The notes beneath the pieces are model-generated. The model did not search any database and had not been told where the DNA came from. It saw nothing but the letters and a program-made list of their open reading frames with translations. Made by a program: the position numbers and the translations under genes. Positions 8,953 through 37,405 of a stretch of DNA of 58,700 nucleotides are shown here, piece after piece. The stretch is from a virus (taxonomy: Duplodnaviria > Caudoviricetes). The stretch spans positions 1-58,700 of IMG/VR virus record IMGVR_UViG_3300021420_000036, one strand, 5' to 3'. Each line of letters starts with the position of its first letter. Position 1 is the first letter of the stretch.

Positions 8953-9265
8953 CGAAAACGCCAAAAACGCGAAAATGCCGTTTTCGGGTAAAACCGGAGC
9001 GGCATTTGTCGTTTAAACGGTTTGAGACGGGCGATCAGGAGGCGCGGGCTGTCTTGACATGGGGGGGAAACGAATCATGGCTGGACAGCCCAGGGACGGC
9101 GCAAGGCCAGGGGATGCCGCAACGGGGGCAATGGTTAAAACCGATTTGCCAAAGATTTGCCAGAAATGTGTCTTTTTGTGTCTTTTGGAGTGTTTTGGTG
9201 TCGGAATGAATGGGAGTTGACAAGTCGGCAAATTGGCTGCAAACATTGATTAAAGCCGTTGTTTG

Positions 9266-9305
9266 GCCAGTTTAGCTCAGTGGTAGAGCGCCGGTTTTGT
9301 AAACC
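9266..9305 (+). mobile_element. Probable attP core: 5' half of tRNA-Thr(TGT)
   Basis: GCCAGTT TA GCTC AGTGGTA GAGC G CCGGT TTTGTAA ACC, then similarity stops; no T-arm or 3' acceptor; about 500 bp upstream of the integrase. Confidence 0.8.
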
Positions 9306-9797: not shown

Positions 9798-10946
9798 ATG
9801 AACACCTTCAAAATTAAACCGTTTCAAAACCCCTCCGGCACGACGGTGTTCCGCGTCGTGGGGACACTCAACGGGAAGCATATCCGCGAAAACCATAAAA
9901 CCCAGGTGGAAGCAATCACGGCCAAGCAGGGTTATGAGCGGGAAGCAAACAACCTAACTCCCCTGCCCGCTGTCACAACCCGCCTCACCGCCGATCAAGC
10001 GGCAGAGGCGGAGGCGGCATTTCACCGGCTCAATGGCGGGCCACTCACCATGACAAAGGCAATAGACTTTGCCCTGAAAAATTATGCTCCATCGGCAAAG
10101 CCAGTCACGGTGACTTTTGCCGTGCAAGCGTTCCTGCAAGCGAAGCGGCGGGAAAATGTCCGGCCTGATACGTTGCGCAACTTGGACGGGCGCTTACAAT
10201 CGCTCATGAAAACTCACGGCGGGGACATCGTCGGCGAGTTGCAACCGGACACGCTCAAGCCGTTTATTTTCGGCAAGGGCTCAATGCTGAATCAACGGAA
10301 TAATCACTTGGTTTTCACCAATTTTTTCAACTGGTGCCAGCGCAATAAATACGTTGCCGTGTCACCGTTGGAAAACATCGGCTCTATCACAATCGACCGC
10401 GAACAGCCGGAGATTCTCACACTCCCCCAGGTGCGAGCATTGGTTCACGCGGCCAGCGCTTACAAGGGCGGCGTCTGTCTCCCCTACGTTGTCGCGGGTC
10501 TGTTTTGCGGTATCAGGCCCAAAGAGATCAGCCGCATCAAGTGGGATGACGTGAATCTCAAAACCAATACGGTCAGCGTATCGGGCAAGTTGCGCGGGCG
10601 GCGAATGGTTGACATCCCGCAAAATGCAAGCGCCTTCCTGCTCACTCATGCAATCCGCAAAACCCCTTTCGTCGGCTCTAACTGGCGCAAGGATTTTGAC
10701 AAGGTCAAGACGCTGGCGGGACTCACCTCGTGGCCGCAAGACGTGATGAGGCACACGGCCATTACTCACCACTTCGCCCAACATCACCACGAGGGCAAGA
10801 CAGCATCATGGGCGGGCAACTCTCCCGATGTCATCCATCGTTATTACAAGGGGCTGATTAACGACCCCCAAGACACGGTGGACTTTTGGGCGATCACGCC
10901 GGAAAGCCTGGACAACATCACCACCCTCAACACCAAGGCGGCATGA
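9798..10946 (+). CDS. int: Tyrosine recombinase/integrase
   Basis: Catalytic GIRPKEI, K in SGKLRGRR, PQDVMRHT, AGNS...HRYY; N-terminal arm-binding-like domain. Confidence 0.92.
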   Translation: MNTFKIKPFQNPSGTTVFRVVGTLNGKHIRENHKTQVEAITAKQGYEREANNLTPLPAVTTRLTADQAAEAEAAFHRLNGGPLTMTKAIDFALKNYAPSAKPVTVTFAVQAFLQAKRRENVRPDTLRNLDGRLQSLMKTHGGDIVGELQPDTLKPFIFGKGSMLNQRNNHLVFTNFFNWCQRNKYVAVSPLENIGSITIDREQPEILTLPQVRALVHAASAYKGGVCLPYVVAGLFCGIRPKEISRIKWDDVNLKTNTVSVSGKLRGRRMVDIPQNASAFLLTHAIRKTPFVGSNWRKDFDKVKTLAGLTSWPQDVMRHTAITHHFAQHHHEGKTASWAGNSPDVIHRYYKGLINDPQDTVDFWAITPESLDNITTLNTKAA

Positions 10947-31933: not shown

Positions 31934-32275
31934 ATGGCATATCAAGCAAGTTATCCCGATGCGGCTGACGACACCGATGCAGGTGCGGGTGCCGAGGCCA
32001 CCACAACTGATGATGCGGAAAAGCCGGAAGGCAAGTCCCCGGATGACGGGCAGGAAGACGAAGATGGGGACGAGCCGGAGGACAGCGGCGAGGAGTCGGC
32101 GTTGATTCCAAAGAGCCTGCTGGCGGGGAAGGATTTTGAGCCGGGCGAGGAGATTGTTTTCCAGATCGTGAAGATGCGCGGAGACGAGGTGGAAATCAAA
32201 TACGCCTCGGACAAGGGTGAGTCGGAGATGGGGAAGGCGGACAAGAAGCTGGCCGGAATGGGGAGTGATTATTGA
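31934..32275 (+). CDS. Acidic hypothetical protein
   Basis: D/E-rich ORF flanked by identical REP copies. Confidence 0.65.
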   Translation: MAYQASYPDAADDTDAGAGAEATTTDDAEKPEGKSPDDGQEDEDGDEPEDSGEESALIPKSLLAGKDFEPGEEIVFQIVKMRGDEVEIKYASDKGESEMGKADKKLAGMGSDY

Positions 32276-36074: not shown

Positions 36075-36097
36075 CCAAGCGGAGCTTGGAACCTATA

Positions 36098-36140
36098 TTA
36101 AAGAGGGCCACCCGCTTATCACGCGAGTGGCCCCATTTTG
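36098..36140. terminator. Bidirectional intrinsic terminator
   Basis: Stem AGGGCCACCCGC-loop-GCGAGTGGCCCC with T-rich tails on both strands, between convergent units. Confidence 0.72.
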
Positions 36141-36430
36141 TGTAGACGGCGTTAACAGTGCCGCCCCAACATTTCAAGTGTTGGAACACTGGAAACGAAG
36201 TTTATCTTTGGTCACGAGCAACCTGCCGGCGCTGAACTTGATCCCGGCGCGATACCACTTCGCCATCCCGCCATCTGGAGGCGGGAGAGGGATTTGAACC
36301 CTCGTCTCCGGTTGGTGATGCCAGCATTTGCACAGTTTCCGTTTCGTTCCGTTGGTTGAGCCTTCGGGTGATAGCCTTAACATCAGCCTGATCCTGAATT
36401 TCACCCTGAGCCTCGAACGGGGCATTTTAA
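36141..36430 (-). ncRNA. Candidate structured ncRNA with a circularly permuted tRNA-like domain (YrlA/Y-RNA-like) and a hexamer array
   Basis: T-arm, 3' acceptor with CCA, 5' acceptor and D-arm in permuted order at 36311-36244; flanking segments are complementary. Confidence 0.78.
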
Positions 36431-36445
36431 GTGCCCCACCCGAAA

Positions 36446-36634
36446 TTATTTTTTATGGTTGCCATTCCCGGCGAGCAGCCACGATTTGAAAAGTTTCCAG
36501 CACTCAACACAGATGTGGATTTTATCCACCTGCCTGCTGGGGGTTTCGTCCGACAATGTTTCAGGCGGGGAAAATGCGAGCCCGCCGTATGCTTTCAATT
36601 CTTCTCCGCATTTGTCGCATTTGGGCTTTATCAT
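36446..36634 (-). CDS. Small CxxC...CxxC protein
   Basis: CDKCG...GGLAFSPP...KIHICVECW. Confidence 0.65.
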   Translation of the reverse strand: MIKPKCDKCGEELKAYGGLAFSPPETLSDETPSRQVDKIHICVECWKLFKSWLLAGNGNHKK

Positions 36635-36643
36635 GGTATTCCT

Positions 36644-37405
36644 TCATTTTTTGCCGTGGACCACGAAGGACAGGAGTTTGTGGCCGATTTTGGCGGACTG
36701 GTCCGTCTCCTGGTCATTGGCGCGGGAGCGCGCGCGCCGGACGGCGCGAATGAGTTGTTCGGCGCGGTCCAGCAACTCCGACTTTTGCGCGGGGGTGATC
36801 ATGCCGGACCATTCCTGTTCGGCAATGGTGCCGGTGACGGTATCCACGGGCACCATTTCCGTCTGGGCGGGATGCTCCTTGGTGGCCTCGTATTTGACAA
36901 TGACGCGGATGTCCTTTTTCGTCCGCGCTTTGGTGATGTCCCGCGCGCGGAAGATGCCCGGGCCTTTCTGCGTATCCGCCTCGAAGCTCTTGGCGGGGTC
37001 CAGCGTGGGGACGGCGGAGAGGAGTTCACGCACTTCCGTCATCCGCTTTTCCAGTTCGAGCAGCGACGTGGCGGGAATATTTTTGAGCAGAACGGTGCCG
37101 GCCTCGTCATCCAGCACGAGATCGGCCCGGGCCTTGGTGTTGGCTTCCGCGACCTGGTAACTGGCATCCAGCGCCTTGGTGATGTGTTGGGACACCCATT
37201 CCAGTTCCTTGGCCACGGTGGATTGCAGCGAGGATTGCTGTTCCAGAACGGGCGGCGCGCCCTCGGTGTTGGGGGTGAAGGTGACGCGTTTTTCCTCAAA
37301 CAAATGACGTTTCTTGGCGAAGGTTTCGGCCAGGTCCGTCCGCACTTTCAAAGCCTGGGTTTCCAGGCTGGTTTCGACCGCGAGTAATTCATGTAGTTTT
37401 GCCAT
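36644..37405 (-). CDS. 253-aa helical/coiled-coil protein of unknown function
   Basis: MAKLHELLAVE...PATSLLELEK...PTLDP...KYEATKEHPAQ...WSG...AVRRARSRAN; has its own promoter. Confidence 0.85.
   Translation of the reverse strand: MAKLHELLAVETSLETQALKVRTDLAETFAKKRHLFEEKRVTFTPNTEGAPPVLEQQSSLQSTVAKELEWVSQHITKALDASYQVAEANTKARADLVLDDEAGTVLLKNIPATSLLELEKRMTEVRELLSAVPTLDPAKSFEADTQKGPGIFRARDITKARTKKDIRVIVKYEATKEHPAQTEMVPVDTVTGTIAEQEWSGMITPAQKSELLDRAEQLIRAVRRARSRANDQETDQSAKIGHKLLSFVVHGKK

What the first reader, a model, noticed from the sequence alone, without database searches (positions are those of the whole stretch)
36370..36418. 6-nt-periodic degenerate repeat array at the 5' end of the ncRNA
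The minus strand reads GTTCGA GGCTCA GGGTGA AATTCA GGATCA GGCTGA TGTTAA GGCTAT, about eight units with consensus GGnTnA. GGCTCA recurs shortly after, and GGATCA AGTTCA follows the D arm. Near-constant T and A at fixed phase with variable other positions suggests one binding site per subunit of a ring or filament protein, by analogy to TRAP-type repeat binding. The overlapping 83-aa ORF reads RLRVKFRIRLMLRL, which is the expected by-product of this periodicity.
Basis: partly seen in the sequence, partly recalled or inferred. Interest (0 to 1): 0.7.

Follow-up and report, generated by a model that had tools for sequence, protein, structure and literature searches.

The report
Six-base repeat array in phage tRNA-like RNA
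The six-base repeat is real and conserved: it is a fixed part of a previously undescribed phage non-coding RNA that also carries a rearranged tRNA-like unit and always sits next to one uncharacterised protein gene, so it most likely serves as a multi-site docking strip rather than coding for a peptide.

Summary
Observation confirmed. Window 36371-36418 (minus strand) holds 8 hexamers, with T at position 4 in 7 of 8 and A at position 6 in 7 of 8. Homologues carry the same array. In 33 distinct RNAs, lag-6 identity is 0.379 against 0.247 in shuffles (z 15). T.A at period 6 is the top pattern of 80 tested (137 units against 2.5 expected).

The array lies in a loop closed by a covarying stem, at the 5' end of a ~350-nt RNA (36444-36095). 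That RNA also contains a circularly permuted tRNA-like module: T arm, acceptor 3' strand, NCCA, loop, acceptor 5' strand, D arm. All 20 module pairs show compensatory changes. Three more hexamers sit at fixed places elsewhere in the RNA.

The RNA follows a DUF7873 gene in 38 of 38 loci, and again in cultured Rhizobium, Vibrio, Gordonia, Klebsiella, Ralstonia, Arthrobacter and Pseudanabaena phages, often inside tRNA clusters. It matches no Rfam family, and my literature searches found nothing on it.

The peptide reading is rejected: stops and frame shifts occur, and the motif recurs inside the tRNA-like fold. DUF7873 is predicted to self-associate as a symmetric dimer, not a ring. Function is unknown. 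An anticodon-loop-like (YUNARR) decoy reading remains open.

The parts
36437..36444 (-). P1 5' strand (UUCGGGUG), starting right after the stop codon of the upstream ORF
   Evidence: Pairs with 36363-36370. On alignment A3 (33 distinct sequences), 86.8% of cells are paired and 5 of 7 pairs have changes on both sides. Slid controls reach at most 58%. The alignment was fitted to the model.
36419..36436 (-). P2 hairpin (GGGGCA-CUUAAAA-UGCCCC). It contains the ATG of the spurious 83-aa ORF.
   Evidence: By eye, a hairpin of variable sequence and length occupies this place in most of the 33 homologues. It is absent from, for example, L038 and L044. In most it is followed by (A)UCCA.
36371..36418 (-). 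The hexamer array: 8 units, consensus RRYUNA, with U4 and A6 near-invariant
   Evidence: Homologues have 3-6 strictly contiguous units, often split by an inserted hairpin. The median is 7 units per 5' domain by the parse.
36363..36370 (-). P1 3' strand (CACCCGAA), closing the array into a loop
36357..36362 (-). Isolated ninth unit GGCUCA just 3' of P1
   Evidence: A conserved (A)AGGYUYA sits at this place in nearly all homologues.
36327..36356 (-). A-rich linker. The length from the 5' domain to the T arm is near-constant.
   Evidence: The linker is 42-49 nt in 28 of the 29 RNAs that could be parsed, and 68 nt in one.
36320..36326 (-). P5 5' strand (UGCUGGC)
   Evidence: Pairs with 36224-36230. 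In 14 of 25 sequences the longest helix between the two flanks falls at this same place (5' gap 6-9 nt, 3' gap 12-14 nt), with unrelated sequences.
36244..36311 (-). Circularly permuted tRNA-like module. Anticodon-stem 3' strand 36308-36311; variable loop; T arm 36287-36303; acceptor 3' strand 36280-36286; U-CCA 36276-36279; loop GAU; acceptor 5' strand 36266-36272; D arm 36249-36263; anticodon-stem 5' strand 36244-36247.
   Evidence: On the MAFFT alignment A4 (25 sequences), 99% of cells are paired and 20 of 20 pairs have compensatory changes. Slid controls reach at most 47%. The rows were chosen by a pattern that required acceptor pairing and most of the T-stem pairing, so those two helices are partly circular evidence. 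The D and anticodon-like stems were not required. Rfam YrlA scores 26.1 bits (gathering score 69) here. Model R2 scores 101.6 bits.
36232..36243 (-). Two further hexamers (GAUCAA GUUCAG). They form the 3' side of an internal loop where the anticodon loop would lie.
   Evidence: In A4, the T and A at 36241 and 36239 of the first unit are nearly invariant and invariant respectively, and the T at 36235 of the second unit is nearly invariant. They are flanked by the anticodon-like stem and P5.
36224..36230 (-). P5 3' strand (GCCGGCA)
36135..36223 (-). Variable 3' region. In some homologues a genuine tRNA sits here.
   Evidence: tRNA-Cys, Thr and Arg lie in this position in L024, L029, L031, L034 and L039.
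36095..36134 (-). 12-bp GC-rich hairpin plus U-rich tail, the likely terminator and 3' end of the RNA
   Evidence: By eye, equivalent long GC hairpins end most of the 14 homologous RNAs printed.
36644..37405 (-). DUF7873 gene (253 aa), the only conserved neighbour
   Evidence: Pfam PF25283, 215.6 bits against a cut-off of 27. It is the only gene family shared by all 14 neighbourhoods compared.
36446..36634 (-). 62-aa four-cysteine ORF inserted between DUF7873 and the RNA. It is not part of the conserved cassette.
   Evidence: It did not cluster with any ORF of the 13 other neighbourhoods compared. In 24 of 37 loci the RNA begins within 40 nt of the DUF7873 match.

Best explanation
The array is a conserved functional element of a previously undescribed phage non-coding RNA of about 350 nt.

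Shown:
- The RNA starts right after the stop codon of the gene upstream and ends at a GC-rich terminator hairpin.
- Its 5' domain is a stem-closed loop (P1). The loop holds a hairpin and then 5-8 hexamers of consensus RRYUNA. Only the U and the A two bases later are fixed.
- One more unit follows P1. Two more line an internal loop next to a circularly permuted tRNA-like module whose acceptor hairpin loop encodes N-CCA.
- The RNA is always paired with a DUF7873 gene.

Inferred:
- The RNA is co-transcribed with DUF7873, and often with phage tRNAs.
- RNase P cuts it at the acceptor 5' strand and the 3' side is trimmed to CCA. This would mirror what was shown for M. smegmatis YrlA and would give a two-piece tRNA-like particle.
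- The roughly 10 hexamers are read at U4 and A6 in a 6-nt register as a multivalent docking strip for a protein. The most likely protein is DUF7873, binding as dimers that line up along the strip, with the hairpins looping out between groups of units.
- The resulting particle displays a tRNA-like domain and acts in tRNA biology during infection, for example as a decoy, shield or processing aid for phage or host tRNAs.
For: Array and conservation:
- The array is real and strongly periodic across 33 distinct homologues.
- Only two positions are fixed, 6 nt apart in phase. Positions 1-3 and 5 drift (PWM). This is the signature of repeated short recognition sites, not of a helix or a codon pattern.
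- The same motif occurs at three separate conserved places in the RNA.
- The array is held in a loop by a covarying stem.

Linkage to DUF7873:
- RNA and DUF7873 are linked in 38 of 38 sources.
- DUF7873 is the only gene family shared by all 14 neighbourhoods compared.
- In 8 cultured-phage loci whose DUF7873 matched the window's at only 29-36% identity, model R2 finds the permuted module downstream of the gene in all 8. In-phase chains of 3 or more TnA units lie between gene and module in 7 of 8.
- Of 60 viral stretches sharing a 15-mer of the RNA, the 3 that R1 scored as this RNA lie on contigs already known to carry DUF7873.

Protein:
- DUF7873 has many invariant basic residues, for example KKRH at 31-34 and R155, K159, R161 and K164.
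- It is predicted to self-associate. Complex prediction score 0.58, best control 0.14. The mark was reached by 20 of 30 proteins solved as pairs of one chain and by 1 of 23 solved as single chains. The runs agree in at least 90% of contacts and the partner pLDDT is at least 79. My own alignment and three copies were used, unlike the calibration.

Processing precedent:
- In the passages I read of PMC4201824, M. smegmatis YrlA has a 7-bp acceptor stem, is cleaved by RNase P and gains CCA in vivo.
Against: - No binding was tested. Linkage of the gene and the RNA could be purely transcriptional.
- The predicted DUF7873 interface is a symmetric dimer, not a ring or filament.
- No RNA-binding fold was recognised.
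- Unit number and grouping vary: 3-6 strictly contiguous units, with hairpins inserted at different points.
- Thermodynamic folding does not mark the array as clearly unpaired. The unpaired probability is 0.43 against 0.34 for other interior bases.
- The unit read cyclically (Y U N A R R) also fits an anticodon-loop or U-turn mimic. That reading would point to a host tRNA-binding factor rather than DUF7873.
- No expression data exist for this phage.
Confidence: 0.45

Rival explanations
1. Iterated anticodon-loop or U-turn mimic. Each unit read cyclically is Y32-U33-N34-A35-R36-R37. On this reading the array presents about 10 anticodon-loop-like sites next to a tRNA-like body. It would act as a decoy or sponge for a host factor that grips anticodon loops, such as an anticodon nuclease of an anti-phage system or a modification enzyme. 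DUF7873 would be a chaperone or partner.
For: - The PWM gives pos3 Y 71%, pos4 U, pos5 Y 72%, pos6 A, pos1 R 74% and pos2 R 78%. From textbook knowledge this matches the universal Y32, U33 and R37 of anticodon loops, and UNR is the U-turn consensus.
- The module is a tRNA opened in its anticodon loop. After the 4-bp anticodon-like stem the first 3' unit reads A-U-Y-A-R in 21 of 25 rows of A4 as aligned, in the register of positions 32-36.
- The cassette lies inside or beside phage tRNA clusters in Rhizobium, Vibrio, Gordonia and Arthrobacter phages and in several metagenomic loci.
Against: - The units are not in stem-loops, which the anticodon-loop enzymes I know of need (recalled).
- Position 32 is A in the module-adjacent unit but Y in the array.
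- Position 34 varies freely, so no single tRNA is mimicked.
- No tRNA-targeting partner is identified.
- The resemblance rests on a degenerate 6-mer.
Confidence: 0.2
2. RNA-only architecture. The periodic U and A build a tertiary or quaternary RNA structure, for example two arrays (within or between molecules) zipping antiparallel. On this reading the RNA self-assembles, as reported for other large phage-associated RNAs found near tRNAs (ROOL and GOLLD; recalled, not read here).
For: - The pattern nnnTnA is its own reverse complement in register (seen, where both strands score 14). In an antiparallel zipper U4 would meet A6, A6 would meet U4, and R1 would meet Y3.
- Single-sequence folding pairs part of the array.
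- The RNA is large, conserved and tRNA-cluster associated.
Against: - Position 5 is C in 53% and G in 11% of units. Position 2 is R in 78%. Two of every six positions would therefore be C-C or R-R mismatches.
- The halves of the array on either side of inserted hairpins are of unequal length.
- No covariation between units was seen or tested.
Confidence: 0.12
3. The periodicity comes from a translated peptide with alternating basic and hydrophobic residues (RLRVKFRIRL), either as a small ORF or as a tmRNA-like tag template.
For: - In one frame the units read A-R-R / Y-U-N, which gives K or R alternating with L, V, I or F.
- That frame is open for 83 codons in the window.
- The RNA has a tRNA-like domain with CCA, as tmRNA has.
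Against: - That frame cannot contain stops by construction.
- Even so, the domain interior is open in a single such frame in only 14 of 28 homologues. Three of the 5 with two or more chains change frame.
- In L002 and L011 the pattern runs on past in-frame TAA or TGA.
- In L015/L039 the K/R codons become V/I codons while the A is kept.
- The window ORF starts inside the P2 hairpin loop and runs through the T arm, acceptor and D arm.
- The same units occur inside the internal loop of the tRNA-like fold.
- ARAGORN finds no tmRNA. The acceptor stem has C3-G70, not G3-U70.
Confidence: 0.03

Closest known systems
YrlA-type bacterial Y RNA with Ro60/Rsr (Rfam RF02553)
   Same: Both have a permuted tRNA-like module in the order T arm, closed acceptor stem, D arm, with the 5' and 3' ends emerging where the anticodon arm would be. 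Both are paired with one neighbouring protein gene. M. smegmatis YrlA has a 7-bp acceptor stem, is cut by RNase P and carries CCA (PMC4201824, passages read). That paper also reports YrlA RNAs in phages.
   Different: The window scores 26.1 bits against a gathering score of 69. There is no TROVE/Ro60 gene in the phage. The partner is DUF7873. CCA is genome-encoded here. The GNCGAAN0-1G Ro-binding motif appears in only 9 of 33 RNAs, at scattered places. YrlA has no hexamer array.
Two-piece (circularly permuted) tmRNA
   Same: In both, the gene order places the T arm and acceptor 3' strand with encoded CCA before the acceptor 5' strand. Maturation into two base-paired pieces is expected.
   Different: Here there is a true D arm. 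There is no G3-U70. No stop-terminated tag frame is conserved. ARAGORN and Rfam do not call it. No SmpB link is known.
TRAP binding site in the Bacillus trp leader (recalled)
   Same: Both have a short motif repeated about 10 times with a fixed spacing of a few bases, only 2-3 fixed bases per unit and free spacers.
   Different: TRAP reads (G/U)AG triplets with 2-3-nt spacers on an 11-mer ring. Here the motif is UNA with 3-nt spacers. The units are split over three sites. The candidate protein is predicted to be a dimer of unknown fold.
CsrB/RsmZ-type protein sponges (recalled)
   Same: Both are non-coding RNAs carrying many copies of a short protein-binding motif.
   Different: Those motifs are GGA in hairpin loops at irregular spacing. 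Here GGA occurs in 1 of 8 window units, and the spacing is strictly 6 nt.
ROOL and GOLLD large RNAs of phages (recalled)
   Same: These are also large conserved structured RNAs, encoded by phages and prophages and often next to tRNA genes, with unknown function.
   Different: The sequence and structure are unrelated, and Rfam does not match them here. They have no tRNA-like permuted module, no hexamer array and no DUF7873 partner.

Membership tests
YrlA / bacterial Y RNA (RF02553) | Scores at or above Rfam's gathering threshold | tested here: not met
   26.1 bits against 69 at 36220-36327, minus strand. No hit in gathering mode.
YrlA / bacterial Y RNA (RF02553) | tRNA-like module with T arm, closed acceptor stem and D arm in permuted order | tested here: met
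   99% of cells paired and 20 of 20 pairs compensatory on A4.
YrlA / bacterial Y RNA (RF02553) | Encoded next to, and bound by, a Ro60/Rsr (TROVE) protein | tested here: not met
   No TROVE match in the complete 58.7-kb phage record, while the control genomes were positive. Binding itself is not testable here.
YrlA / bacterial Y RNA (RF02553) | Conserved GNCGAAN0-1G motif in the Ro-binding stem (PMC4201824) | tested here: not met
   The pattern is present in 9 of 33 RNAs at inconsistent positions. In the window it falls in the D arm.
tmRNA (one- or two-piece) | Recognised by ARAGORN or the Rfam tmRNA models | tested here: not met
   ARAGORN finds 0 genes. RF00023 gives fragments of 15.5 and 11.1 bits against 47.
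tmRNA (one- or two-piece) | G3-U70 alanine identity pair in the acceptor stem (established knowledge) | tested here: not met
   The window acceptor is GGCGGGA/UCCCGCC, so pair 3-70 is C-G. The acceptor sequences vary freely among homologues.
tmRNA (one- or two-piece) | Conserved tag reading frame ended by a stop codon | tested here: not met
   No frame is conserved. The domain interior has no stop in any single K/R-hydrophobic frame in 14 of 28 homologues and is interrupted or shifted in the rest.
Canonical tRNA gene | Cloverleaf in normal order with an anticodon arm | tested here: not met
   ARAGORN finds no tRNA in the window. The order is permuted and the anticodon loop is open.
TRAP-regulated leader | 9-11 (G/U)AG triplets separated by 2-3 nt (recalled) | tested here: not met
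   The fixed bases are U and A two positions apart with 3-nt spacers. The presence of a TRAP (MtrB) gene was not tested.
CsrB/RsmZ-type sponge | Many GGA motifs, mostly in hairpin loops (recalled) | tested here: not met
   GGA occurs in 1 of 8 window units. G is not fixed at positions 1-2 in homologues.
Pfam DUF7873 (the neighbouring protein) | Score above the Pfam gathering cut-off over the full profile | tested here: met
   215.6 bits against 27, residues 1-249 on profile positions 1-242 of 244.
Cas7 / RAMP backbone proteins (bind crRNA in 6-nt steps) | Shared fold with Cas7 | tested here: inconclusive
   Many of the top Foldseek PDB rows are type I-E Cascade or type III effector chains, but at E about 0.01 and TM 0.12-0.16. 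None appears among the 50 rows (Z 3.0 and above) shown by the VIA-align second look or the wide search.

The most novel reading that the evidence does not exclude
DUF7873 and this RNA form a new kind of phage ribonucleoprotein. It would be a two-piece, CCA-ended tRNA body carrying about 10 tandem anticodon-loop-like U-turn sites (YUNARR). Phages would deploy it from within their tRNA clusters to soak up or misdirect host factors that attack or modify tRNA anticodon loops. That would make it a multivalent RNA decoy against tRNA-targeting immunity.
Probability: 0.15. Interest if true: 0.9.

Novelty: new variant of a known kind. Interest (0 to 1): 0.78.

Why it matters
The finding opens onto an unreported, widespread phage RNA-protein cassette.

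- Scale. More than 1,460 DUF7873 protein clusters exist in public data. Every locus I could inspect carries the RNA.
- Novelty. The RNA combines two things not seen together before. One is a circularly permuted tRNA-like body with a genome-encoded CCA. The other is a strictly 6-nt periodic array in which only a U and an A are fixed. It is absent from Rfam 15. Searches for 'DUF7873', 'permuted tRNA' with phage, and YrlA with phage found no description of it.
- Testability. The cassette occurs in cultured phages with tractable hosts (Gordonia terrae, Rhizobium, Vibrio). The function of both the DUF and the RNA is therefore directly testable.
- Context. Its seat inside phage tRNA clusters ties it to the open question of why phages carry tRNA islands and how they cope with tRNA-targeting defences.

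Tried and rejected
- Peptide reading: rejected.
- Chance or low complexity: rejected by conservation.
- Cas7 likeness of DUF7873: weak Foldseek rows only, not kept by VIA-align.
- Other protein searches: BFVD gave only uncharacterised proteins. PDB sequence profiles had best E 0.11. PHROGs, PADLOC and NCBIfam gave nothing for DUF7873. The ESM Atlas returned only DUF7873 clusters and unnamed ones.
- Ro60 partner: no TROVE gene.
- Model R1 on cultured phages: no hit in the Rhizobium and Vibrio loci, even with filters off. The 5' domains there were seen by eye and by chain counts, so their homology to P1 and P2 is not established.
- 15-mer scan of viral contigs: R1 scored 57 of the 60 stretches below E 0.001. 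One of those 57 lies on a contig already known to carry the RNA but is cut at the locus edge, and the rest look like chance matches. No RNA without DUF7873 was found, though the power of this test is low.
- Target search: complements of the units (TGAGCC and others) are not enriched, and no second array exists in the phage genome.
- Thermodynamic accessibility of the array: not decisive. Single-sequence MFE was uninformative.
- Promoter scan: no sigma-70-like site on the RNA strand between the RNA and 37800. This is weak evidence for co-transcription only.
- Sequencing runs: no RNA holder listed.
- Antiparallel self-zipper of the array: considered and judged unlikely from the C excess at position 5.
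- Supplementary tables of PMC4201824, which list the phage YrlA RNAs, could not be seen. Some of those RNAs might overlap this family.
Full report
1. The observation

On the minus strand, 36418-36371 reads GTTCGA GGCTCA GGGTGA AATTCA GGATCA GGCTGA TGTTAA GGCTAT. T is at unit position 4 in 7 of 8 units. A is at position 6 in 7 of 8 units. The six middle units are perfect and contiguous. The 83-aa ORF (36425-36174) does read MPRSRLRVKFRIRLMLRL.

Within the window, this T/A score (14 of 16) is the highest on either strand. In 200 first-order Markov shuffles of the whole window the maximum was 13, reached in 2 of 200. The pattern was picked after the fact. A pattern-free statistic peaked elsewhere (about 31952-32000) at a value that 1 of 200 shuffles also reached. 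The window alone therefore gives moderate evidence only.

2. What surrounds it

The window is a complete 58.7-kb viral record. On the minus strand the order is:

- large terminase, 39882-37705 (phrog_2)
- a 253-aa DUF7873 protein, 37405-36644 (Pfam 215.6 bits)
- a 62-aa four-cysteine ORF
- a non-coding stretch down to a 12-bp GC hairpin with a U-rich tail at 36134-36095

ARAGORN calls nothing in the window. No Rfam family reaches its gathering score. In E-value mode the best match is YrlA, the bacterial Y RNA, at 26.1 bits against 69.

Read directly, 36311-36244 is a tRNA in circularly permuted order. It runs through the anticodon-stem 3' strand, variable loop, T arm (GAGGG-UUCAAAU-CCCUC), acceptor 3' strand, U-CCA and a 3-nt loop. 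It continues with the acceptor 5' strand, D arm and anticodon-stem 5' strand.

3. Homologues

Searches with the DUF7873 protein and with a profile of it gave 36 distinct viral loci and one Verrucomicrobia MAG contig. I built covariance model R1 from 14 of the 5' domains, using only the 7-bp P1 stem as structure.

R1 hit all 38 sources searched, once each. Every hit was on the DUF7873 strand, from overlapping the end of the gene match to about 600 nt beyond it. In 24 of 37 loci the hit began within 40 nt of the gene match. Of the 38 sources, 21 were not in, or identical to, the training set. Those 21 scored E 2e-18 to 1e-4.

DUF7873 is the only gene family shared by all 14 neighbourhoods compared. 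The terminase adjacency is not conserved.

4. The array is conserved at the nucleotide level

- In the 33 distinct 5' domains, identity at lag 6 is 0.379 against 0.247 in dinucleotide shuffles (z 15). At lag 12 it is 0.33 (z 9). Lags 2-4 are depleted.
- Of 80 possible two-base patterns, T.A at period 6 ranks first, with 137 units in in-phase chains of 3 or more against 2.5 expected. Its register-shifted twin A...T is second. At periods 4, 5, 7, 8 and 9 the same pattern gives 6-21.
- A trained position matrix gives G/A, G/A, C/T, U, C>U/A/G, A. The training fixes U4 and A6.
- The array follows a hairpin (P2), usually via (A)UCCA. In many homologues it is interrupted by an extra hairpin. It is enclosed by P1: 86.8% of cells paired, 5 of 7 pairs with double changes, slid controls at most 58%. 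That alignment was fitted to the model.
- One further unit follows P1 in nearly all RNAs.

5. The rest of the RNA

On a MAFFT alignment of 25 modules, the four helices of the permuted tRNA are paired in 99% of cells. All 20 pairs show compensatory changes, and slid controls reach at most 47%.

One caveat applies. The rows were chosen by a pattern that required acceptor pairing and most of the T stem, so those two helices are partly circular evidence. The D and anticodon-like stems were not required.

N-CCA follows the acceptor 3' strand in 31 of 33 distinct RNAs by my reading. L045 has CUG there, and L042 is ambiguous in register.

Just 3' of the anticodon-like stem lie two more hexamers, with the U and A again fixed. 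A helix between the flanks (P5) then falls at the same place in 14 of 25 sequences, with unrelated sequences. These two units therefore form one side of an internal loop where the anticodon loop would be.

In five loci a genuine tRNA sits in the 3' part of the RNA. Many loci lie in or beside tRNA clusters.

6. Cultured phages

tblastn finds DUF7873 at under 60% identity in 75 phage records (the rows listed lie at 29-36%). These include Rhizobium, Vibrio, Gordonia, Klebsiella/Serratia, Ralstonia phiRSL1, Arthrobacter and cyanophages.

In the 8 loci fetched, the gene is annotated as hypothetical and the stretch downstream is largely unannotated. In five of the eight the locus also holds a cluster of tRNA genes. 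Model R2, built from the module, finds one to three permuted modules downstream in all 8, at 33-54 bits for the best hit in each. It also gives weaker hits at junctions of adjacent true tRNAs. Chen et al. warned that dimeric tRNAs could score as false positives for YrlA.

In-phase chains of 3-5 TnA units lie between the gene and the first module in 7 of 8 loci. Chains of 3 can arise by chance in AT-rich DNA.

R1 does not detect the 5' domains in the two cultured-phage loci searched with it. The cassette is therefore old and widespread. One search lists 1,460 DUF7873 clusters, all unnamed.

7. Not a peptide

The frame that reads K/R alternating with hydrophobic residues is stop-free by construction (A-R-R / Y-U-N).

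- Even so, the domain interior is open in one such frame in only 14 of 28 homologues. Three of the 5 with two or more chains change frame.
- The pattern continues past in-frame stops in L002 and L011. In L015 the 'basic' codons become V/I codons while the A is kept.
- The window ORF starts in the P2 loop and runs through the tRNA-like module.
- The same units occur inside that module's internal loop.

8. The partner protein

The AlphaFold model (pLDDT 85) has long helices and a sheet with a long beta-hairpin. No convincing match was found in PDB or BFVD.

- Foldseek's top PDB rows include many chains of type I-E Cascade and type III CRISPR effector complexes, at E about 0.01 and TM 0.12-0.16. 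That would be tempting, because Cas7 grips RNA in 6-nt steps (recalled). The VIA-align second look and the wide search do not keep them among their listed rows.
- Three copies were predicted to bind each other. Score 0.58, best control 0.14. The mark was reached by 20 of 30 proteins solved as pairs of one chain and by 1 of 23 solved as single chains. The runs agree in at least 90% of contacts and the partner pLDDT is at least 79. My own alignment and three copies were used, unlike the calibration.
- The confident interface is symmetric between two copies (strand 36-47 against 190-203), and the third copy barely touches. This supports a dimer, not a ring.

9. Mechanism

Shown: the anatomy, the conservation and the gene linkage.

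Inferred:
- Co-transcription with DUF7873. The RNA begins at the upstream stop codon, and no promoter-like site was found (weak evidence).
- RNase P cleavage and trimming to the encoded CCA. This is by analogy with M. smegmatis YrlA, which has a 7-bp acceptor stem, is cut by RNase P in vitro and carries CCA in vivo (PMC4201824, passages read).
- Use of the hexamers as a 6-nt-register docking strip, most likely for DUF7873.

I give this reading 0.45.

A second reading, at 0.2, notes that the unit read cyclically is Y-U-N-A-R-R. That is the form of positions 32-37 of an anticodon loop and of a UNR U-turn (textbook knowledge). It also notes that the first module-adjacent unit sits in exactly the 32-36 register. 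On this reading the array could be a multivalent anticodon-loop mimic aimed at a host factor.

An RNA-only zipper is possible, because the pattern is its own reverse complement in register. The C excess at position 5 counts against it.

10. Comparison and novelty

The module works like YrlA's and like a two-piece tmRNA gene, but it fails the tests for membership of both. The Rfam score is too low, there is no Ro60, there is no Ro-binding motif, there is no G3-U70 and there is no tag frame. The array works in principle like TRAP or CsrB binding sites, but with a different motif and spacing.

I found nothing in print. The searches were 'DUF7873' (0 papers), 'permuted tRNA' with phage, YrlA with phage, and phage tRNA-like RNA in tRNA clusters. 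For those searches I saw listings and abstracts only. The supplementary tables of Chen et al., which list the phage YrlA RNAs, could not be seen.

No RNA-seq holder was listed for this phage, so expression and RNA ends remain untested.

Noticed in passing
window 9262-9300 (+): An intergenic stretch reads like the 5' half of a tRNA: acceptor strand, UAGCUCAGUGGUAGAGC D arm and the start of an anticodon stem. There is no T arm. ARAGORN calls nothing here, and R2 gives a partial 17.6-bit hit. It may be a remnant or an attachment-site fragment. A 382-aa ORF starts at 9798.
   Followed up: partly
window 36446-36634 (-): A 62-aa ORF with two CxxC pairs is inserted between DUF7873 and the RNA. It did not cluster with any ORF of the 13 other neighbourhoods compared. 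It has only a weak likeness to an archaeal zinc-finger family (NCBIfam E 0.014).
   Followed up: partly
L024, L029, L031, L034, L039 (about 2529-2872): Genuine tRNA genes (Cys, Thr, Arg-UCU) are embedded in the 3' part of the RNA, between the tRNA-like module and the terminator hairpin. In these phages the RNA and a tRNA are probably cut from one transcript.
   Followed up: partly
L057-L062 (cultured Gordonia, Klebsiella, Ralstonia, Arthrobacter and Pseudanabaena phages): Distant members carry two or three permuted tRNA-like modules in tandem. Some modules lack CCA after the acceptor strand, for example both modules in phiRSL1. The middle piece would then begin and end with acceptor strands belonging to different modules.
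   Followed up: partly
L058 2518-2597 (Klebsiella phage vB_KpM_FBKp24): The record annotates a 'tRNA-Sup-TTA' inside the stretch that R2 reads as permuted modules (2371-2431 and 2562-2657). The annotation may be a mis-call of this RNA.
   Followed up: no
L040 2350-2426 versus 2392-2513: A tRNA-Arg gene overlaps the start of the 5' domain. Its T arm appears to take the place of the P1/P2 region.
   Followed up: no
window about 31952-32000: This is the highest pattern-free 6-nt periodicity score in the window (36 of 48). It lies in the structural-gene region and is probably a coding repeat.
   Followed up: no
window 36418-36413 and homologues: Most homologues have (A)UCCA between the P2 hairpin and the first unit, so a hairpin followed by N-CCA resembles a second, mini acceptor end. 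The window itself has GUUCGA there.
   Followed up: no
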